Below, one piece after another: positions 7,754-49,567 of a DNA stretch of 64,000 nucleotides. Every line of letters starts with the position of its first letter. The stretch's first letter is position 1. The stretch is from Eledone cirrhosa (taxonomy: Eukaryota): the NCBI GenBank assembly GCA_964016885.1, contig OZ024747.1, forward strand, positions 51,026,001-51,090,000, read 5' to 3'. The notes beneath the pieces were generated by a model, which had not been told where the DNA came from, did no database searches, and worked only from the letters and a program-made list of their open reading frames with translations. The position numbers and the translations under genes were made by a program.

Positions 7754-7838
<85 letters not shown>

Positions 7839-7918
7839 GAGATAAGCGGAGCAAGAAAGATTCAAACAATTTTTTAAATAAATAAAAAAATATAATTTAA
7901 ATATTCACCTATTCCTTT

Positions 7919-8000
7919 TGCTTTTACCGACGGTTTCACCTCACAAAAGATTGGAAATCCTAGGGACTTCCAATGGAAATGTTCGGATCTTCAGAAAGCA
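7919..8000 (-). ncRNA. Type I hammerhead ribozyme (mirror copy)
   Basis: Reverse complement of 8278-8359. Confidence 0.7.
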
Positions 8001-8277
8001 TTTTCCCTACCTAGGACGTAAAGTCCCAGGAACGGCAAAATATATTGCTAACTGCCAGGTAGTACAGGGTCGAATGAGGCCGTAAACTTCACCTACACAT
8101 GAACCAGCCCTTAGTAGAAGCGGAAGTAAACATAGACATGTTGTCTATCACGCCACTAAAAATAGCAACTAAATAAAACAACGGATTTGTTCTCTACATA
8201 ACGGATAATATATAAAAAGGAGATCAATATCCCAACAGGTTGCCGTTCCTGGGATTTTACGTCCTAGGTAGGGAAAA

Positions 8278-8359
8278 TGCTTTCTGAAGATCCGAACATT
8301 TCCATTGGAAGTCCCTAGGATTTCCAATCTTTTGTGAGGTGAAACCGTCGGTAAAAGCA
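8278..8359 (+). ncRNA. Type I hammerhead ribozyme
   Basis: Stem I TGCTTT/AAAGCA, CTGAAGA 8284-8290, long stem II (attggaagtcc/ggatttccaat), GAAA 8341-8344, palindromic stem III ACCGtCGGT, GUA cleavage after 8353. Confidence 0.75.
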
Positions 8360-8550
8360 AAAGTAATTGGTGAATATTTAAATTATATTTTTTAATTTAT
8401 TTTAAAAAAATATTTGAAACTTGCTTGCTCCGCTTATCTCAATTTTATAGTTCTGGTATGTCAAATGAATACCATAGAACAACCACTGTATCATAGACAC
8501 CCTATATATTTCCAGGGGTACTTAGTGCATGTGGTGATATTGATCTCCTT

Positions 8551-8718
<168 letters not shown>

Positions 8719-20851: not shown

Positions 20852-23800
20852 TTACAGATATATACTCAGAGTAGGCCCATTCACTCGGGCCATTCTTGCT
20901 TCTCTCACCCATCTTTCAACAAAATGCTGGGAAGAGAGCACTTCCTTCTCTACTCTGATTTTCCTTTTCAAATGAAATTTGAAAAAGTCAATCAGAGCAT
21001 CACCGAAGAGGTAAGTGCTCGTCTTCAGCCCTTTCAAACGTGTCCACCATACTATCTCTTTCGCCATGGCCACCAGACAGATAAAAACTGCCTGCCCTTC
21101 CCGGCTAAAGGAGGAGGGCGGGGCAATCCTCACGATAGACTCAGATGATAGCTGGATCCGTCCTAAACGCGACAGCAGGTGTTCGACATAAACCCACAAG
21201 TCAGCAATTTTCGGACACTGGACGAGTGCGTGCAGGACGGTTTCGTCGCCCTGCGCGCATCTCGGACATGCCCGGCTGACGGCACCTCCATGCCTGTAGA
21301 GTTTATCCCGAACTGGCAAGGCTCCTCGGTAGCACTGCCAGGCCAGAGATTTCTGGAAGTTGTCCATAGGCCCTGGCCCGAAAGTTCTTCCGAAGAGATT
21401 GGCTAGTTGATTTTCGTCGACGCCTAGAGTTTCCCCAAGTACGTCGTCGCTCTTCCCCTCCACTAATCCTCTATAGAACGCCGAGGTGGAGTTTCCACCG
21501 ATCACATTGCCCGATTGGTCGAGGGCTGTGAGCGCCTGAAGACATTCCAGTCTCCAGGCGCTCCCTCTCGGTCTTCGCTTGACCCAGGACTGCAGCTCCG
21601 TCAAGGAAACGAGCTGGGGAAAAACGCGTCTAGCAAACGGCGACCACACCTGATCACCGTCGAGGAAGAGGTGGAGATGTCGTAGCCTGAGCGCGTGCCT
21701 GCGCATCATCAGCCACGGCATGCCCAGCCCTCCACGTAGCGGGTGTTGACAACAGATGGACCGCCTGACTATCGGAGCACGTCCCTTCCACAAAAAGCGA
21801 AAGAGCAAACGCTCCAGCGCAGTCAGGCGAGGCTTAGGACAAGGTACGACGGTTAGGCGGTAGCAGATGACAGACGCGATGTACGCGTTAGCCACCTCCG
21901 CTCGACCTTTCAGGGATAGCTTCCTCTCCGCCCATTTCTGGGTGAGAGAAGCCACCCTGCTCGTCACCTCGTCCCAGTTTTTGTCCGTCTGGAGGTCCGG
22001 ACCGAACCAGACCCCTAGCAATTTAACCGGTCCGTCCGTCCAGCGCCCGACGACGCTGTTGGACGGCATGGACCTGCCTCTCCAGGTGCCGAGCTGCAGG
22101 CCCACTGACTTTTCCTGGTTGATCATTGCTCCTGTCACCGCTTCGTATTCTCTTAGTGTAGTGCCGATCGCCTCGATGTGTTTGGCGTTCGACACCACTA
22201 CGGTGACATCGTCCGCATATGCTGACACGGATCTTCCGCATCCTAGTTCGCGCGGGACTCCCCTCAACGTCTCCAGTTTGTGCAGTAATGGCTCGAGAGT
22301 CAATACGTACAAGAGGGACGAGAGGGGACATCCTTGGCGGACCGAGCGCATGATGTTGAACGGTTCCGACAGGTGACCGTTCACTCTCACTACAGAGCAG
22401 ATGTCGCTGTGCATGGCAGCGATCCAGCCTCTGAAGACGGGCCCAAAGCCAGCCGCCCTCAGGACTGCCGCTAGGTAACGATGGTCGACCCTATCGAAAG
22501 CTTTCGACTGATCTAAATTGATCAAGGACCCACCCGTGCCAGGTTCCCTAGCTACCCTCTCTACGATGTATCGCATGAGGTGGAGGTTGTCGTGGATGGA
22601 TCTGTCGGGAATGGCGCATGTCTGCGCCTCTCCCACCAGACCACCAACGACAAGCGCCAACCTCTTTGCTAGCACCTTGGCCAAAATCTTAAACTCTGTG
22701 TTTAGCAGAGTTATGGGCCGGAAATTGTCTATGTTATCCCCCTTGTTCGGATCCTTTCTCAGCAGTGCCACCGCTCCTCGGCTCACAGAACTGGGAATTC
22801 TCCCGTTCTGTTGCCAGTTGCAGTAGACGTCCGCCAAGAGGCCTCCGAACAAGTCTGGCATCTGTACGTAAAGTTCATAGGGCAGACCATCCAAACCAGG
22901 CGATTTACCCCTTGTGCAGCCAGTCATTGCCTCCCGTACTTCAGCGGCTGTTATCGGCTTTTCGCAACACTTCGCCTCAGTGGCCGAGAGCCGCGGCAGT
23001 CCGTCGAGGTAGACACTAAAGTCCATCCCTCTACCCGGCCCCCCGCTGCCCCCGAACAGCTGAGCGAAGTGTCGCTGAAAAGCTTCACACATTTGCCCGG
23101 GATCGAGTAGCATGCGCCCGTCGTGGTCCACCAAAGACCGGATCGTGGCTTTGTTGCCACGACGCGCCTCCGCCACTCGGGCCCATTGAACGGCTTTCGT
23201 CCCCTCGTGTCTGAGAGCACGCACCCTAGCTCTGACAACGCAGCCTTCGTGCTTTGCATTGAAGAATTGGTCAAGGGCCAATTTCGCCGCAAGCACGTCG
23301 GTCGCAATGCCTTTGCTAAGCGCCTCGTCTAATTTTCTAACTAGTTCTCCCTCTGCTCTATTTTTCTCTATTGCTAAAGCCTTACTAAACCTAATCGATT
23401 CTATTCTAATCGCTCTTTTCAGAGCAAACCACCACTTGTTGTTGACGATGGCCCCCGTCAACGCCCGCTTAACTAGTTCGCTAATCCGGTCTCTGTAGGC
23501 CTTGCGCGCTGGTAAGGACGCGTTTAGCTTCCAGTAGCCGGGTCCTCGTCTATGAAGCCTATCTAAGTCAAGCACACAGGTCACGAATTTGTGGTCCGTG
23601 TAGCTGACTATCTTGAATTGTGGACAGCCTATGCTAGACCTATCTATTTCCCTACAAAATACTCTATCTAGATATGATCTGGATGACCCAATGCGGTTTG
23701 TCCAAGTCCACATTCGCACATTCGGGAAATCCAATCGGTACCTGTCAGACAGTTCAAAACGCCTGAGCAGGTTGGTGAGGCTCTTGCACCCTCCACCCCT

Positions 23801-24271
23801 ATCCGCTAATCCCACACAGTCCCAGCGTGCATCTAAGATCCCGTTCCAGTCGCCCACTAACACTAAAGAGCGGGACGTTCCAAGAAAGGTCTCCAGACGC
23901 CGGAAGAAATCAGGCCGCCCTGCTCCTGTCGGGGCATAGACGGCCACTAGCCTGAAAGCTTGCCCGTCTCCGCTGGTCACGTCCAGCACCACCAGCTTAC
24001 CCTCTGGGTCCAGGAAGATGGCCCGTATGGCGAGATCCAAACCTCTCCGAAAAAGCACAGCAACTCCTCCACCCGATCCAGGACGGCTGGGAGATGCGTA
24101 CACATCGTAGCCGCCGAAGATCGGTGCGAAGGCCCGTGCTTCGGAGATTCTGGTCTCGCTGATGGCCACTACATCTATGTTTAGTGACCTGAGGTCGTTG
24201 AGCAGGTGACCCTGCTTCCATGACGACCCCAAGCCACGCGCATTTATGCTGCCTATTCTGAGTGAGGTCAT
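20852..24271 (-). CDS. Tx1 ORF2: APE endonuclease + reverse transcriptase + C-terminal CCHC zinc finger (1139 aa, intact)
   Basis: APE motifs SINARGL, ISET, VYAP, VGDWN, YLDRVF, TDHK; RT motifs KSPGLDG, FRPITLLN, LDQSKAFDRVDH, RQGCPLS, YADD; CPRC..ETVLHALVQC. Confidence 0.97.
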   Translation of the reverse strand: MTSLRIGSINARGLGSSWKQGHLLNDLRSLNIDVVAISETRISEARAFAPIFGGYDVYASPSRPGSGGGVAVLFRRGLDLAIRAIFLDPEGKLVVLDVTSGDGQAFRLVAVYAPTGAGRPDFFRRLETFLGTSRSLVLVGDWNGILDARWDCVGLADRGGGCKSLTNLLRRFELSDRYRLDFPNVRMWTWTNRIGSSRSYLDRVFCREIDRSSIGCPQFKIVSYTDHKFVTCVLDLDRLHRRGPGYWKLNASLPARKAYRDRISELVKRALTGAIVNNKWWFALKRAIRIESIRFSKALAIEKNRAEGELVRKLDEALSKGIATDVLAAKLALDQFFNAKHEGCVVRARVRALRHEGTKAVQWARVAEARRGNKATIRSLVDHDGRMLLDPGQMCEAFQRHFAQLFGGSGGPGRGMDFSVYLDGLPRLSATEAKCCEKPITAAEVREAMTGCTRGKSPGLDGLPYELYVQMPDLFGGLLADVYCNWQQNGRIPSSVSRGAVALLRKDPNKGDNIDNFRPITLLNTEFKILAKVLAKRLALVVGGLVGEAQTCAIPDRSIHDNLHLMRYIVERVAREPGTGGSLINLDQSKAFDRVDHRYLAAVLRAAGFGPVFRGWIAAMHSDICSVVRVNGHLSEPFNIMRSVRQGCPLSSLLYVLTLEPLLHKLETLRGVPRELGCGRSVSAYADDVTVVVSNAKHIEAIGTTLREYEAVTGAMINQEKSVGLQLGTWRGRSMPSNSVVGRWTDGPVKLLGVWFGPDLQTDKNWDEVTSRVASLTQKWAERKLSLKGRAEVANAYIASVICYRLTVVPCPKPRLTALERLLFRFLWKGRAPIVRRSICCQHPLRGGLGMPWLMMRRHALRLRHLHLFLDGDQVWSPFARRVFPQLVSLTELQSWVKRRPRGSAWRLECLQALTALDQSGNVIGGNSTSAFYRGLVEGKSDDVLGETLGVDENQLANLFGRTFGPGPMDNFQKSLAWQCYRGALPVRDKLYRHGGAVSRACPRCAQGDETVLHALVQCPKIADLWVYVEHLLSRLGRIQLSSESIVRIAPPSSFSREGQAVFICLVAMAKEIVWWTRLKGLKTSTYLFGDALIDFFKFHLKRKIRVEKEVLSSQHFVERWVREARMARVNGPTLSIYL

Positions 24272-24306
24272 GTTTAAAATAGAGTGGAAAAGATGGAAAA
24301 GACCAC

Positions 24307-26403
24307 TTACCGTACTTTTGGTAGAGGAGGGATGGTTTTTACATCCCTTTTCACTTGATCGTCTGGTGAAGGGACCGTTGAATCGTCCCTTCGGCTGGTC
24401 GTCGGCTCTTCTAAGAGAATGTCTGAATATACTCTTCGATTAATGGTTCCTCCTAGGTCCCTGAAATCACCAACTGCGTTGGGGAATTTCGTTTTAATGT
24501 TTGTGTATTGTTTCTGTGCTATTTTTAGCAGTCTTATGTTAGTTGGCGTTTTGATTGGTGCTGGTATTATGTAGTCCTGTTGTGAAATGTCTGTGTGTTC
24601 AATTATGTAAGTCATTAATTTCTTGTTGTGTGTGTTTATTGCCGTGCATTTGTTTTTCTGGGGGTGGGGTGGGGTTCTGCTATTTTCTTGTCGTTGTTGC
24701 TGGGTGTGTGTGTTTTGTTGTTGTGTTTGCGATGTTGGTGCTTGTGGTGGTGGTGTTGAAGGTGTTGTTGGCGGTGGGGTTGTCGCCGGTGGTGATGGTG
24801 GTGCTGGTGTGGGTGGTGATGGTGTTGGTGGTGTTGCTGCTGTGGGTCTCTTTGCAGTAGACTTTACCCTTTTCTCATTTCTTTCCTCCCTTTTCAAAGG
24901 CGACGATGCGCTGCTTCTGCGTTTGTGCCTTCTTGAGACCTTTTGCCATCCCTCTCCCACCTCACACTCCATGTCTGATTCTGTAAGGTCGGTGAGGGGT
25001 ACCAGCTCCACTCTTTCACTTGTTGTTGTTGGTGATGTTTGCACTGGAGTCTCTGTTGCAGCTGCATTTGGTATTGCTGTTGTTGTTGTTAATATTTCCA
25101 CTGCTGCTGCTGTCTTTGATTTCCGTGGAGTGGGTATGGGTGCCACGGACCTATCGTTCCTGGTTGCCGCTTGTCCTGTTGCTGGTAGCCGTGGAACCGG
25201 ATTCGGAAGGAGGGGGGTTTTCTCCTTTCTCAGGGTCTTCTCGTTGCAGAAGGCCCTGAGGTGAGTCTTCGATCCACAGCGAAAGCATTTCGGGCGTTTG
25301 CCCTCAACACTTATGGGCAGTTGAGTGCCGTTATCGAAGTCTATCACATCCGGGATAGCTTCGATGCACTCCTGGTTGGTTTGGATTAGCATCTCAATGG
25401 AGGAGCCGACCCAATCTTCTCTTACTTTTTTCTGTACTTGCAGTACAGTTGTTTTGTCCTCGATTCCGACGAGGACAGACGCGGCCAGCCAAGAAGGGGT
25501 CATTCCGGGGGGGACGTGGGTCAGTTTGACCCTCACAATTTTTTGCCCGCAGTAGGAGGGCACCAACACCATTTCCTCGCTCCTTAGGGTCACTACTGAT
25601 TGGGCCTTTGCCTCCTGGGGTGTGGCAAAATGTCCGTCTACGGTGGCATATTTTTTTCCTCGGGTGATGTGCGTTTTCCGCTGCCACACAGACCCCAAGG
25701 CTTTTTGTATTTGGGCCTCTGTAGCTCTTTCCACCCTACGGGATTTTGTACTTACTGTACGGTACGTGACCGTACAGTGCTCTTGGGTTTCGAAAAATTT
25801 TTCCGCTGCCTTGCAGATTGCTCGGTGTCCGTTCTTTGTCGCCATCTTCTTCGCTTCCTCTAATTCCTCATTTGTTATGAGGATTGTTTCCAAGTTTTTC
25901 GCAATACCTGCAAATGAGATTGGTTTTTCTCTGCTGTTGTTGTTGTCGTCAGAGCTGCTGGTACTTTTGTTGTTGCTGCAGGTACTACGACTACTGCCTC
26001 CGCCGCTGTTGCTGTGGTTGTTGTTGGTGTTGCTGCTGCTAATGCTGTTGTTGTTTATGCTGCTGGTGCTGCTGTTGCGGCTGCTACTGTTGTTTTCATT
26101 GTCACTGTTGCTGTTGTTATTACGGCTGCTACTGCTATTATTCCTGACGTCAGACGAATGAACTGGGTTTTCGTATTTCCCGCACACCTGTTTCGTGGCT
26201 GTCGTCGTCGTCGTGGAGAAACCTTGCACGCTTTGCACGAGACTTTTCTTTTCTTTCGTCACTTGCGAAAGAGAAGGGAGGGAGAGAGACACATTTAAAG
26301 AAGGGAGGGAGAGAGACAATCTTCTCTCTGCTGTAGTGATGATTGAGAAAGAAGAAGACGGAATGAGTGGGAGTGACGTATGAAATTTCTTTTTCGTAGC
26401 CAT
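24307..26403 (-). CDS. Tx1 ORF1, gag-like nucleic-acid-binding protein (698 aa)
   Basis: Open 698 codons upstream of ORF2; zinc knuckle CFRCGSKTHLRAFC (CX2CX4HX4C); S/N-rich and P/T-rich low-complexity tracts. Confidence 0.9.
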   Translation of the reverse strand: MATKKKFHTSLPLIPSSSFSIITTAERRLSLSLPSLNVSLSLPSLSQVTKEKKSLVQSVQGFSTTTTTATKQVCGKYENPVHSSDVRNNSSSSRNNNSNSDNENNSSSRNSSTSSINNNSISSSNTNNNHSNSGGGSSRSTCSNNKSTSSSDDNNNSREKPISFAGIAKNLETILITNEELEEAKKMATKNGHRAICKAAEKFFETQEHCTVTYRTVSTKSRRVERATEAQIQKALGSVWQRKTHITRGKKYATVDGHFATPQEAKAQSVVTLRSEEMVLVPSYCGQKIVRVKLTHVPPGMTPSWLAASVLVGIEDKTTVLQVQKKVREDWVGSSIEMLIQTNQECIEAIPDVIDFDNGTQLPISVEGKRPKCFRCGSKTHLRAFCNEKTLRKEKTPLLPNPVPRLPATGQAATRNDRSVAPIPTPRKSKTAAAVEILTTTTAIPNAAATETPVQTSPTTTSERVELVPLTDLTESDMECEVGEGWQKVSRRHKRRSSASSPLKREERNEKRVKSTAKRPTAATPPTPSPPTPAPPSPPATTPPPTTPSTPPPQAPTSQTQQQNTHTQQQRQENSRTPPHPQKNKCTAINTHNKKLMTYIIEHTDISQQDYIIPAPIKTPTNIRLLKIAQKQYTNIKTKFPNAVGDFRDLGGTINRRVYSDILLEEPTTSRRDDSTVPSPDDQVKRDVKTIPPLPKVR

Positions 26404-26636
26404 GTTGTTTTTTGTTTAAAATGAATATTGGGTACAAAACCCCAATAACTGGTTATTTAACCCCGAAGGGCCAAATAACGGACAGAAAGACCCCTCTCAC
26501 GAGGAGGAGGGTGTCTTTATCAACAATTTGGTTCAAGTTTTAAACAATTTACAATTGTTTTAACGGTTAAAAATTACTATACCTTACAGAGCCGAGCCTC
26601 CGTCAACCATGGCATTCAATAATAATAATAATAATA

Positions 26637-48478: not shown

Positions 48479-48649
48479 AATATAATATAATATATGATAC
48501 AATATATATCTATATATCTATATATACGTATCTATCTATATATAGATGAAGTGGCGGGGCGGAGGGGGAGTGTCTGTCTGTGTGCGTGTGTGCGTGTCAA
48601 TATATTTATTTTGGCATGTATATATATATATATATATATATAAAGGTTT

Positions 48650-48726
<77 letters not shown>

Positions 48727-48802
48727 CGTGTGTATGTGCTTTGCAACGGGTCACTTTGTGGCTCAATGAAGAGTTAAGAAATTAAATAATCAGAACTATA
48801 TA

Positions 48803-49505
48803 TCATAAAACATATCTATAGAATCACCAGATAAAATATATACCGTTTCCTCTCCCAATTAGCATAATTAACCATACAAAAATTCGATTAGACCAAGCTA
48901 TAAGAATAAAGGCTTCTATGAAGAAATCTCCGACAAATAACCGAAAGCAGCCCTTCGCGGCGGTTGCACGGAGTATTTATCGAGTATTTCGACAGCGTGT
49001 ATAAATCGACCAGATATACAGTCAACTAAACAGAATCCCGTTAGGTTGAGATACAATTTTGGCTGTATTGGGCTGCGCTTTCTAGCAAAAGGCCACCAGC
49101 CGTAAGCAACTAATCACATTCTTTCTAACTTGATCGCTGCTACGTCCCGATTCTTAGCCATTTTTTAATGTATTCATGGCGCGATCACTTTGGAAAATTA
49201 ATTGTCTAAATTTTAGCTAACTCCTGAAGAGTCCGGTGCTCCAGATGTCCAATGTTATCGGATATCTTAAAATGCGGACGAAACCATGGTAGAGGTAACT
49301 AAATATGTTCACTTTTTTCCTAGTTTATTTTACACCTGATTCTGTTTAGTTGACGAAGGGCTGCTTTCGGTTATTTGTCGCAAATTTCGTCATAGAAGCC
49401 TTTATTCTTATAGCTTGGTCTAATCGATTTTTTATATGGTTAATTATGCTAATTGGGAGAGGAAACGGTATATATTTTATCTGGTGATTCTATAGACATG
49501 CTTTA

Positions 49506-49508
<3 letters not shown>
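48803..49508. mobile_element. Inverted-repeat element with central hammerhead (third family)
   Basis: ~150-bp arms 48803-48957 and 49354-49508, plus inner pair 49021-49037/49338-49354; (TA)n on right. Confidence 0.75.
49214..49301 (+). ncRNA. Type I hammerhead ribozyme, canonical core
   Basis: Stem I tagctaactc/gaggtaacta (8 of 10 pairs), CTGAAGA 49224-49230, stem II GTCCG/CGGAC, GAAA 49280-49283, palindromic stem III ACCATGGT, GUA cleavage after 49291. Confidence 0.82.

Positions 49509-49567
<59 letters not shown>

What the first reader, a model, noticed from the sequence alone, without database searches (positions are those of the whole stretch)
48803..49508. Best-formed hammerhead, enclosed in the loop of a 150-bp inverted repeat
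Seen: a canonical core at 49214-49301 (stem II GTCCG/CGGAC directly closing the core, stem III ACCATGGT, GUA triplet). Here only the sequence 3' of the ribozyme is duplicated in inverted form, so the ribozyme stays single-copy in the loop and is not sequestered by an antisense arm. Inference: the most likely active ribozyme in the window and a third independent family.
Basis: partly seen in the sequence, partly recalled or inferred. Interest (0 to 1): 0.75.

Follow-up and report, generated by a model that had tools for sequence, protein, structure and literature searches.

The report
Lone hammerhead in Penelope-type insertion scar
This is one ordinary copy of a roughly 650-base, protein-free repeat whose self-cutting (hammerhead) RNA motif recurs about 1,800 times in this animal genome; the inverted repeat around it is likely the scar left when Penelope-type jumping-gene enzymes inserted it, and the lone motif is predicted to fold into its cutting shape better when paired with a second copy than alone.

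Summary
In detail: a canonical type I hammerhead (core 49224-49291, cut after 49291) lies between 161-bp inverted arms, and only sequence 3' of it is inverted. It belongs to a non-coding ~650-nt repeat family: 1,865 intact cores genome-wide, subfamilies 72-100% alike, stem II covariation, tandem dimers and a 45-unit array. This fits an animal non-LTR retrozyme. The inverted repeat is Penelope-type insertion anatomy: two head-to-head arms with scattered breakpoints; 47 of 48 scorable insertions have one short and one tailed end. A ribozyme in one arm only is the majority state (40 of 58), not a special design. The 'most likely active' inference is weak. Helix III is a 2-bp palindrome predicted to favour a double hammerhead. 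The enclosure does not help folding. This copy has one ribozyme, a private 64-nt deletion and comparatively diverged arms. No autonomous partner was found and no RNA data exist here. The scan reported this architecture earlier for other families in this genome. New member of a known kind.

The parts
48639..48651 (-). Long (tailed) end of the inverted arm: first 13 nt of the next unit, running into (TA)n
   Evidence: L001 end class L13
48652..48739 (-). (CA)n(TA)n spacer that is part of the repeat unit, between tail and unit start
   Evidence: 89-nt spacer in L001
48740..48796 (-). Unpaired ~57-nt tail (unit 568-624), present at this end only
48797..49036 (-). Inverted, 5'-truncated arm, unit positions 327-567; no ribozyme
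   Evidence: 97% to the reference unit
49035..49037 (.). Head-to-head junction of the two arms with 1-2 nt microhomology; not seen in any other fetched locus
49036..49514 (+). Forward arm, unit positions 24-342 plus 407-567, ending at the short end in (TA)n
49221..49294 (+). Type I hammerhead motif; predicted cleavage after 49291 (GUA)
49283..49290 (+). Palindromic helix III (ACCAUGGU): 2 bp plus tetraloop as monomer, 8 bp in a double hammerhead
49354..49355 (+).
   Evidence: junction found only in L001, the window's own locus
49515..49564 (.). (TA)n target microsatellite at the short end

Best explanation
This is one copy of a non-coding, roughly 650-base hammerhead repeat family (an animal non-LTR retrozyme), likely inserted into a (TA)n tract by a borrowed Penelope-type reverse transcriptase/endonuclease, and its inverted repeat is likely a by-product of that insertion rather than a cage for the ribozyme. 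SHOWN: family, copy number, non-coding unit, covarying ribozyme stem II, two fixed 3' ends, one short and one tailed arm per insertion, scattered 5' breakpoints, arms often longer than one unit that cross the cut site without a stop. INFERRED: both DNA strands at the nicked (TA)n target prime cDNA on the same RNA at two internal start sites about 100 nt apart; the two cDNAs are truncated at random and joined head to head by microhomology; the template is a ligated circle or an uncut uniform multimer. PREDICTED: the ribozyme cuts tandem transcripts into unit-length RNA mainly as a double hammerhead through its palindromic helix III. This copy has one ribozyme and a deletion, so it could at most cut once, alone or with a partner in trans, and would not release a unit-length RNA.
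For: Family: 221 exact copies of this core and 1,865 of the relaxed core, both with 0 control hits. 30 of 30 sampled relaxed-pattern loci align to the unit at 72-95% with the same ends. No long ORF in the unit; GC 37%. Tandems: dimers 690-881 nt apart and a 45-ribozyme array with 660-nt period. Structure: 91% of cells paired and 4 of 5 stem II pairs with compensatory changes; 0 of 500 shuffles reach the covariation score. In a subfamily 76% identical to this one and sampled with a ribozyme-free query, 19 of 26 matched ribozyme regions have an intact core (2 of the 7 failures are 5' truncations; 4 of 30 loci lacked the region). Anatomy: 58 head-to-head insertions; 47 short+long, 1 long+long, 0 short+short, 8 with an interrupted arm, 2 at locus edges; 116 breakpoints spread over unit positions 1-590, none at 270-290. 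This matches PLE anatomy (inverted 5'-truncated copy, tail at one end, (TA)n; PMC8557442) and two internal RT start sites (PMC11167929). Private variants are shared by all passes of an insertion 90 times against 25 partial sharings; three-pass comparisons are mostly star-like. Young coding PLEs with the same two-end anatomy exist in the genome, one with an open 995-aa frame. Folding: two copies of the window fragment fold as a double hammerhead at -55.6 against 2 x -22.1 kcal/mol; in 3 of 3 natural tandems the double fold costs 8-11 kcal less than two monomer folds.
Against: No autonomous partner was identified. The unit shows no similarity to the two coding PLE families examined, whereas Xenopus retrozymes often match PLE pLTRs (bioRxiv 10.64898/2026.07.22.740005). 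Cleavage, expression and circularity are untested. In the three tandems the double fold costs about the same as a single monomer fold (8.9 vs 9.6, 12.7 vs 14.5, 4.4 vs 3.9 kcal), and ViennaRNA ignores loop-loop contacts. Most invertebrate retrozyme hammerheads were reported to self-cleave efficiently (PMC7229834), so monomer activity is open. The covariation alignment was selected on the core and helix III, which are therefore invariant by construction; only 27 of 500 shuffles separate the 'pairs with both-side change' count from chance, and relatedness inflates the other measures. One three-pass insertion (L143: 11/3/10) is not star-like. The window copy's own arms share no private variant. 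Loci were chosen by similarity or by having a ribozyme, which biases breakpoint counts.
Confidence: 0.8

Rival explanations
1. One reading: the inverted repeat is a functional enclosure that leaves one ribozyme free, making this an especially active, perhaps selected, monomeric ribozyme in read-through RNA.
For: Core and G10.1-C11.1 closing pair are canonical. Stem II is predicted to form in context (P 0.87). No antisense copy of the ribozyme exists in this insertion. Invertebrate retrozyme hammerheads can cleave efficiently (PMC7229834).
Against: One-arm ribozymes are the majority (40 of 58). Stem I and helix III have P about 0.001-0.003 with or without the enclosure. The same intact core is in 27 of 32 ribozymes of close relatives, so it needs no local selection. 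Arms differ at 7 of 161 sites, 49th of 54 insertions in arm identity.
Confidence: 0.07
2. It is a truncated pLTR remnant of an autonomous Penelope-like element that has not been found, with the ORF lost at insertion.
For: All PLE structural hallmarks are present. Most PLE insertions are 5'-truncated (PMC8557442). Only two coding PLE families were examined.
Against: The unit repeats head to tail with no ORF between ribozymes. Arms read from unit start back into the tail, not into coding sequence, in every subfamily from 72 to 100% identity. PLE reading frames seen near some copies belong to families with other ribozymes and ends.
Confidence: 0.08
3. It is a MITE (DNA transposon) with ~160-bp terminal inverted repeats that happens to carry a hammerhead.
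For: Inverted termini flanked by TA; a few other copies have a similar layout.
Against: Inverted arms vary from about 40 to more than 600 bp with scattered breakpoints. Many copies have no inverted arm. The two ends are asymmetric and tandem units occur.
Confidence: 0.02

Closest known systems
Animal non-LTR retrozymes (Cervera and de la Pena 2020, PMC7229834: passages and section 14 read; Li, Clavereau and Pollet 2026, bioRxiv 10.64898/2026.07.22.740005: parts 1 and 3 of 5, section 12 and passages read)
   Same: Non-coding, low-GC repeat unit with one type I hammerhead; monomers, dimers and long arrays; short palindromic helix III; coexists with autonomous PLEs.
   Different: Unit ~650-690 nt exceeds the 150-450 bp of the 2020 paper but lies within the 51-972 bp of the 2026 preprint. 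Two-arm insertions with fixed ends were not described in the passages read. No homology to a PLE pLTR was found. The unit contains a microsatellite. RNA circles are not shown here.
Penelope-like elements: pLTR, inverted 5' copy and tail (Craig et al. 2021, PMC8557442: passages read; Frangieh et al. 2024, PMC11167929: parts 1-2 of 4 read)
   Same: Partial tandems, inverted 5'-truncated copy, tail at one end only, (TA)n targets, two 3' ends downstream of the hammerhead.
   Different: No RT or GIY-YIG frame. Distance between the two ends is about 100 nt or more including the microsatellite, against a 30-40 bp tail.
PLE hammerheads (Cervera and de la Pena 2014, PMC4209133: part 1 of 4 read)
   Same: Type I topology, short stem I, long helix II, palindromic helix III suited to dimers, opposite-strand pairs 100-700 bp apart.
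   Different: Keeps a 2-bp helix III with tetraloop and a canonical core rather than the minimal helix-III-less variant; helix II carries a 39-nt insert.
Non-autonomous PLEs such as Chlamydomonas MRC1 (PMC8557442, passage read)
   Same: Non-coding, pLTR-forming, head-to-tail insertions.
   Different: Those resemble their autonomous partner at the 3' end; here no partner was found, and a hammerhead is present.

Membership tests
Type I hammerhead ribozyme | CUGANGA, GAAA and NUH core joined by stems I-III in type I order | tested here: met
Type I hammerhead ribozyme | Stems supported by covariation | tested here: met
   4 of 5 stem II pairs compensatory; stem I varies on one side only; helix III fixed by the search pattern
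Type I hammerhead ribozyme | Match to an Rfam hammerhead model | tested here: inconclusive
   No match; the 39-nt stem II insert is the likely reason (inference), so this is not a test of the fold
Type I hammerhead ribozyme | Self-cleavage | not testable with these tools
   Only folding energies
Animal non-LTR retrozyme (family level) | Tandem units each with a type I hammerhead | tested here: met
   Dimers with two intact cores; array with 45 ribozyme motifs, 33 with intact core
Animal non-LTR retrozyme (family level) | Non-coding, low GC | tested here: met
   (37% GC)
Animal non-LTR retrozyme (family level) | Unit size | tested here: inconclusive
   ~650-690 nt: outside 150-450 bp, inside 51-972 bp
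Animal non-LTR retrozyme (family level) | No LTR, primer-binding site or polypurine tract; larger target duplications when present | not tested
   No dedicated search; (TA)n flanks hide target duplications
Animal non-LTR retrozyme (family level) | Expressed as linear and circular monomer RNA | not testable with these tools
   No RNA holder listed
'Active retrozyme' as defined by Li et al. 2026 (this copy) | [quoted passage not shown] | tested here: not met
   One ribozyme only; this copy is a monomer derivative
Autonomous Penelope-like element | RT plus GIY-YIG reading frame | tested here: not met
Autonomous Penelope-like element | Inverted 5'-truncated copy, tail at one end, (TA)n target (works like) | tested here: met
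Non-autonomous partner of a named PLE | Sequence shared with an autonomous PLE end or pLTR | tested here: inconclusive
   None with two coding families (37 loci); other families not examined
MITE | Fixed terminal inverted repeats shared by copies | tested here: not met

The most novel reading that the evidence does not exclude
A Penelope-type enzyme copies one ~650-nt circular ribozyme RNA from both strands of a cut (TA)n target, starting at two fixed sites and rolling past the ligated cut site. That single mechanism would explain the Penelope tail, the inverted 5' copy and retrozyme spread, and this family, with at least two young lineages 24% apart that keep ends and palindrome, would be a ready substrate for reconstitution.
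Probability: 0.4. Interest if true: 0.6.

Novelty: new member of a known kind. Interest (0 to 1): 0.3.

Why it matters
The copy itself is ordinary. The family is a large, multi-lineage test set for the proposed but mechanistically unproven link between animal retrozymes and Penelope-like elements: one short and one tailed arm in 47 of 48 scorable insertions, and no stop at the ribozyme cut site, give clear predictions for in vitro work. The scan has already reported the same footprint for other families in this genome, so this adds a further family, not a new principle.

Tried and rejected
Rfam: no hammerhead hit (only microsatellite-driven miRNA and other low-score hits). Expression: no RNA holder listed; three contig runs of unknown kind from one sample only confirmed very high copy number, and no piece bridged this copy's junctions; neither is evidence for or against expression. 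Partner hunt: hammerheads with shorter stem II and the same helix III (16 hits) were deletion variants (12), two or three copies of a related family, or chance-like, none beside a PLE frame on the sense side. Two abundant coding PLE families found beside copies share no sequence with the unit. Pfam did not classify their fragments and gave only a sub-threshold RVT_1 hit for the 995-aa frame; the GIY-YIG call is by eye. End-hairpin folding showed no structure clearly shared with the coding family, so the shared-hairpin claim of e1-8809842 was not confirmed for this family. A scar at the cut site (template jump, as in e1-8664908) was not seen: G at the first base after the cut in 87 of 92 copies, similar to its neighbours; the pattern used would miss insertions or deletions there. 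Circle versus uniform multimer could not be separated. MITE rejected. Literature searches found no description of this family; the term 'octopus' was my guess at the host from recalled repeat content and was not established by any search. Supplements were not read: PMC8557442 file S1 (PLE sequences) might hold the partner, and the bioRxiv supplements are closed.

Full report
Observation. The window reads stem I CTC (49221-49223), core CTGAAGA (49224-49230), stem II GTCCG/CGGAC (49231-49235 / 49275-49279) with a 39-nt insert, GAAA, helix III ACCATGGT (49283-49290), A49291 as cut base and GAG (49292-49294). A strict descriptor finds it once in the window and never in 100 shuffled windows. Rfam does not score it. 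Inverted arms of 161 nt at 96% lie at 48797-48957 and 49354-49514.

The family. The host genome is 3.0 Gb; a DNA search gave 3,734 candidates, of which 40 were scored. The exact core pattern occurs 221 times and a relaxed one 1,865 times, with no hit for the reversed controls. All 30 loci fetched from the relaxed search align to one unit at 72-95%; at least one of the 100 listed matches looks like a related family, so 1,865 is approximate. I used one natural 625-nt unit from L020 as ruler: ribozyme core at 212, cut after 279, short end at 567, tail 568-625, then a microsatellite spacer and the next unit. The unit has no long frame and 37% GC. It occurs as dispersed copies, as dimers 690-881 nt apart and as a 29-kb array of 45 ribozyme-bearing units with a 660-nt period on contig C1. 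A subfamily only 76% identical to the window's is itself young: the 30 best matches to one member are 96-100% identical, and with a query that excluded the ribozyme 19 of 26 matched ribozyme regions had an intact core (2 of the 7 failures are truncations; 4 of 30 loci lacked the region). Across 28 ribozymes, 91% of cells pair, 4 of 5 proximal stem II pairs show compensatory changes and slid controls fall to 28-51%. Core and helix III were fixed by the search pattern, and a subfamily with a broken core would not have been found, so this evidence for constraint is good but not unbiased.

What the inverted repeat is. In unit coordinates the window copy is an inverted arm [327-625 plus 1-13] joined head to head to a forward arm [24-342 plus 407-567]. 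The forward arm has a 64-nt deletion found in no other fetched locus, which is why the visible repeat is 161 rather than ~240 bp. I examined 136 loci and dropped 28 as repeat views or segmental duplicates; 58 of the remaining 108 contain a head-to-head junction (L114 and L121 may still be duplicates). Of 48 with both ends scorable, 47 have one short and one long end, 1 has two long ends and none has two short ends; 8 have an interrupted arm and 2 touch a locus edge. The 116 breakpoints run from position 1 to 590 with none at 270-290, so there is no pile-up at the cut site; selection for ribozyme-bearing loci forbids calling this a depletion. A complete ribozyme lies in one arm in 40 insertions, in both in 15 and in neither in 3; among the 39 not chosen for likeness to the window copy, 25 have one and 11 have two. 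This is the published anatomy of Penelope-like elements: inverted 5'-truncated copy, tail at one end, (TA)n targets (PMC8557442, passages). Two internal RT start sites define the tail in vitro (PMC11167929, parts 1-2 of 4). The 'two arms, one tailed' reading was also in earlier notes of this scan on other families; I ran the end-class count after seeing them.

Mechanism. Shown: the anatomy above. Inferred: a PLE endonuclease cuts (TA)n, each strand primes at one of two start sites on the same RNA, and the two truncated cDNAs join by microhomology (1-2 nt here). Many arms exceed one unit and cross the cut site, so the template cannot be a cleaved linear monomer copied once. Private variants are shared by all passes of an insertion 90 times, by a same-arm subset 13 times and by a cross-arm subset 12 times, with 577 singletons. 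Three-pass comparisons are star-like in L020 (5/4/5), L038 (8/9/9) and L117 (4/4/5) but not in L143 (11/3/10). This fits one unit-length template, that is a circle, but a uniform tandem transcript would look the same. No scar was seen at the cut site. The genome holds abundant young coding PLEs, one with an open 995-aa frame, inverted arms, two 3' ends and (TA)n flanks, but neither family examined shares sequence with the unit, so the driver is unidentified.

Is this copy the most active? Predicted cost of the monomer hammerhead fold is +3.8 kcal/mol in a 131-nt fragment and +6.9 to +7.1 in the loop, the forward arm or the whole insertion; the enclosure makes no difference. Helix III alone is unstable (+2.9) but forms an 8-bp duplex (-11.2) between two copies, and the lowest-energy fold of two window fragments is the double hammerhead (-55.6 against 2 x -22.1). 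In three natural tandems the double fold costs 8-11 kcal less than two monomer folds, but about the same as one. Short palindromic helix III is described as impeding monomer cleavage and rescued by a neighbouring copy (PMC4209133, part 1 of 4). Against this, most invertebrate retrozyme hammerheads were reported to cleave efficiently (PMC7229834, passages and section 14). Base rates are sobering: 1 of 9 Xenopus dimers cleaved (bioRxiv 10.64898/2026.07.22.740005), and an anole PLE hammerhead needed its protein and was dispensable for insertion in vitro. The window copy's arms differ at 7 of 161 sites, 49th of 54 insertions, so it is probably among the older ones, if arms start identical. With one ribozyme it cannot release a unit-length RNA. 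It may still cut once; that is untested.

Independence from the other hammerheads in the window. Loose scanning finds motifs at 8284(+)/7994(-), 53287(+) and 5562(-). None resembles this unit beyond chance, so 'independent family' stands at the sequence level, although the 8-kb element shows the same two-arm layout.

Comparison and verdict. It works like a non-autonomous Penelope-type element and meets the testable criteria of an animal non-LTR retrozyme at family level (tandem units with type I hammerheads, non-coding, low GC; size within 51-972 bp); circular RNA is untested. It is not an autonomous PLE and not a MITE. This copy is a monomer derivative. My four paper searches found no description of this family; supplements were not read. 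Novelty: new member of a known kind. Interest 0.3.

Noticed in passing
window ~7830-8570: A second, unrelated hammerhead element with the ribozyme in both inverted arms (210 bp, 95%) and an unpaired tail; its long end reads CCTTTATA into (TA)n like this family's long end.
   Followed up: partly
window 53287 (+) and 5562 (-): Two further hammerhead-like motifs with short stem II, unrelated to this family.
   Followed up: no
window 20852-24439 (-) and 24307-26415 (-): Open 1195-aa LINE-type frame (endonuclease, RVT_1, zf-RVT) preceded by a 702-aa frame without Pfam match: an apparently intact LINE.
   Followed up: partly
L107:5663 to L110:6034 (G000:C1:92.986-93.016 Mb): 29-kb satellite of 45 family units with higher-order variants that still begins with an inverted arm and ends at the short end: a two-arm insertion later expanded. 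Helicase-like frames lie beside it (L111; Helitron-like by recall).
   Followed up: partly
L112-L141, ribozyme region: A young subfamily has an A-A mismatch where the canonical G10.1-C11.1 pair closes stem II, yet spread recently.
   Followed up: no
spacer between tail and unit start, e.g. L011, L020 versus L065, L084: In the window's subfamily the spacer has become an expanding (CA)n(TA)n tract (about 20 to over 200 nt); in the divergent subfamilies it is a ~30-nt complex AT-rich sequence, so the element appears to seed microsatellites.
   Followed up: no
L023:2278-2721, L094:2382-2424, L114:2976-3042; L068 and L071 central ribozymes: Distant non-coding relatives share the tail start and unit start motifs (one with a CUGACGA core and ACCGCGGU palindrome) or the same helix III and long-end motif: a likely superfamily using one driver.
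   Followed up: partly
L165:2037-5021 (G000:C2:111.87 Mb): Open 995-aa Penelope-like frame with 772-bp inverted arms, from a family with 39,077 search candidates, two 3' ends 54 nt apart and its own hammerhead variant.
   Followed up: partly
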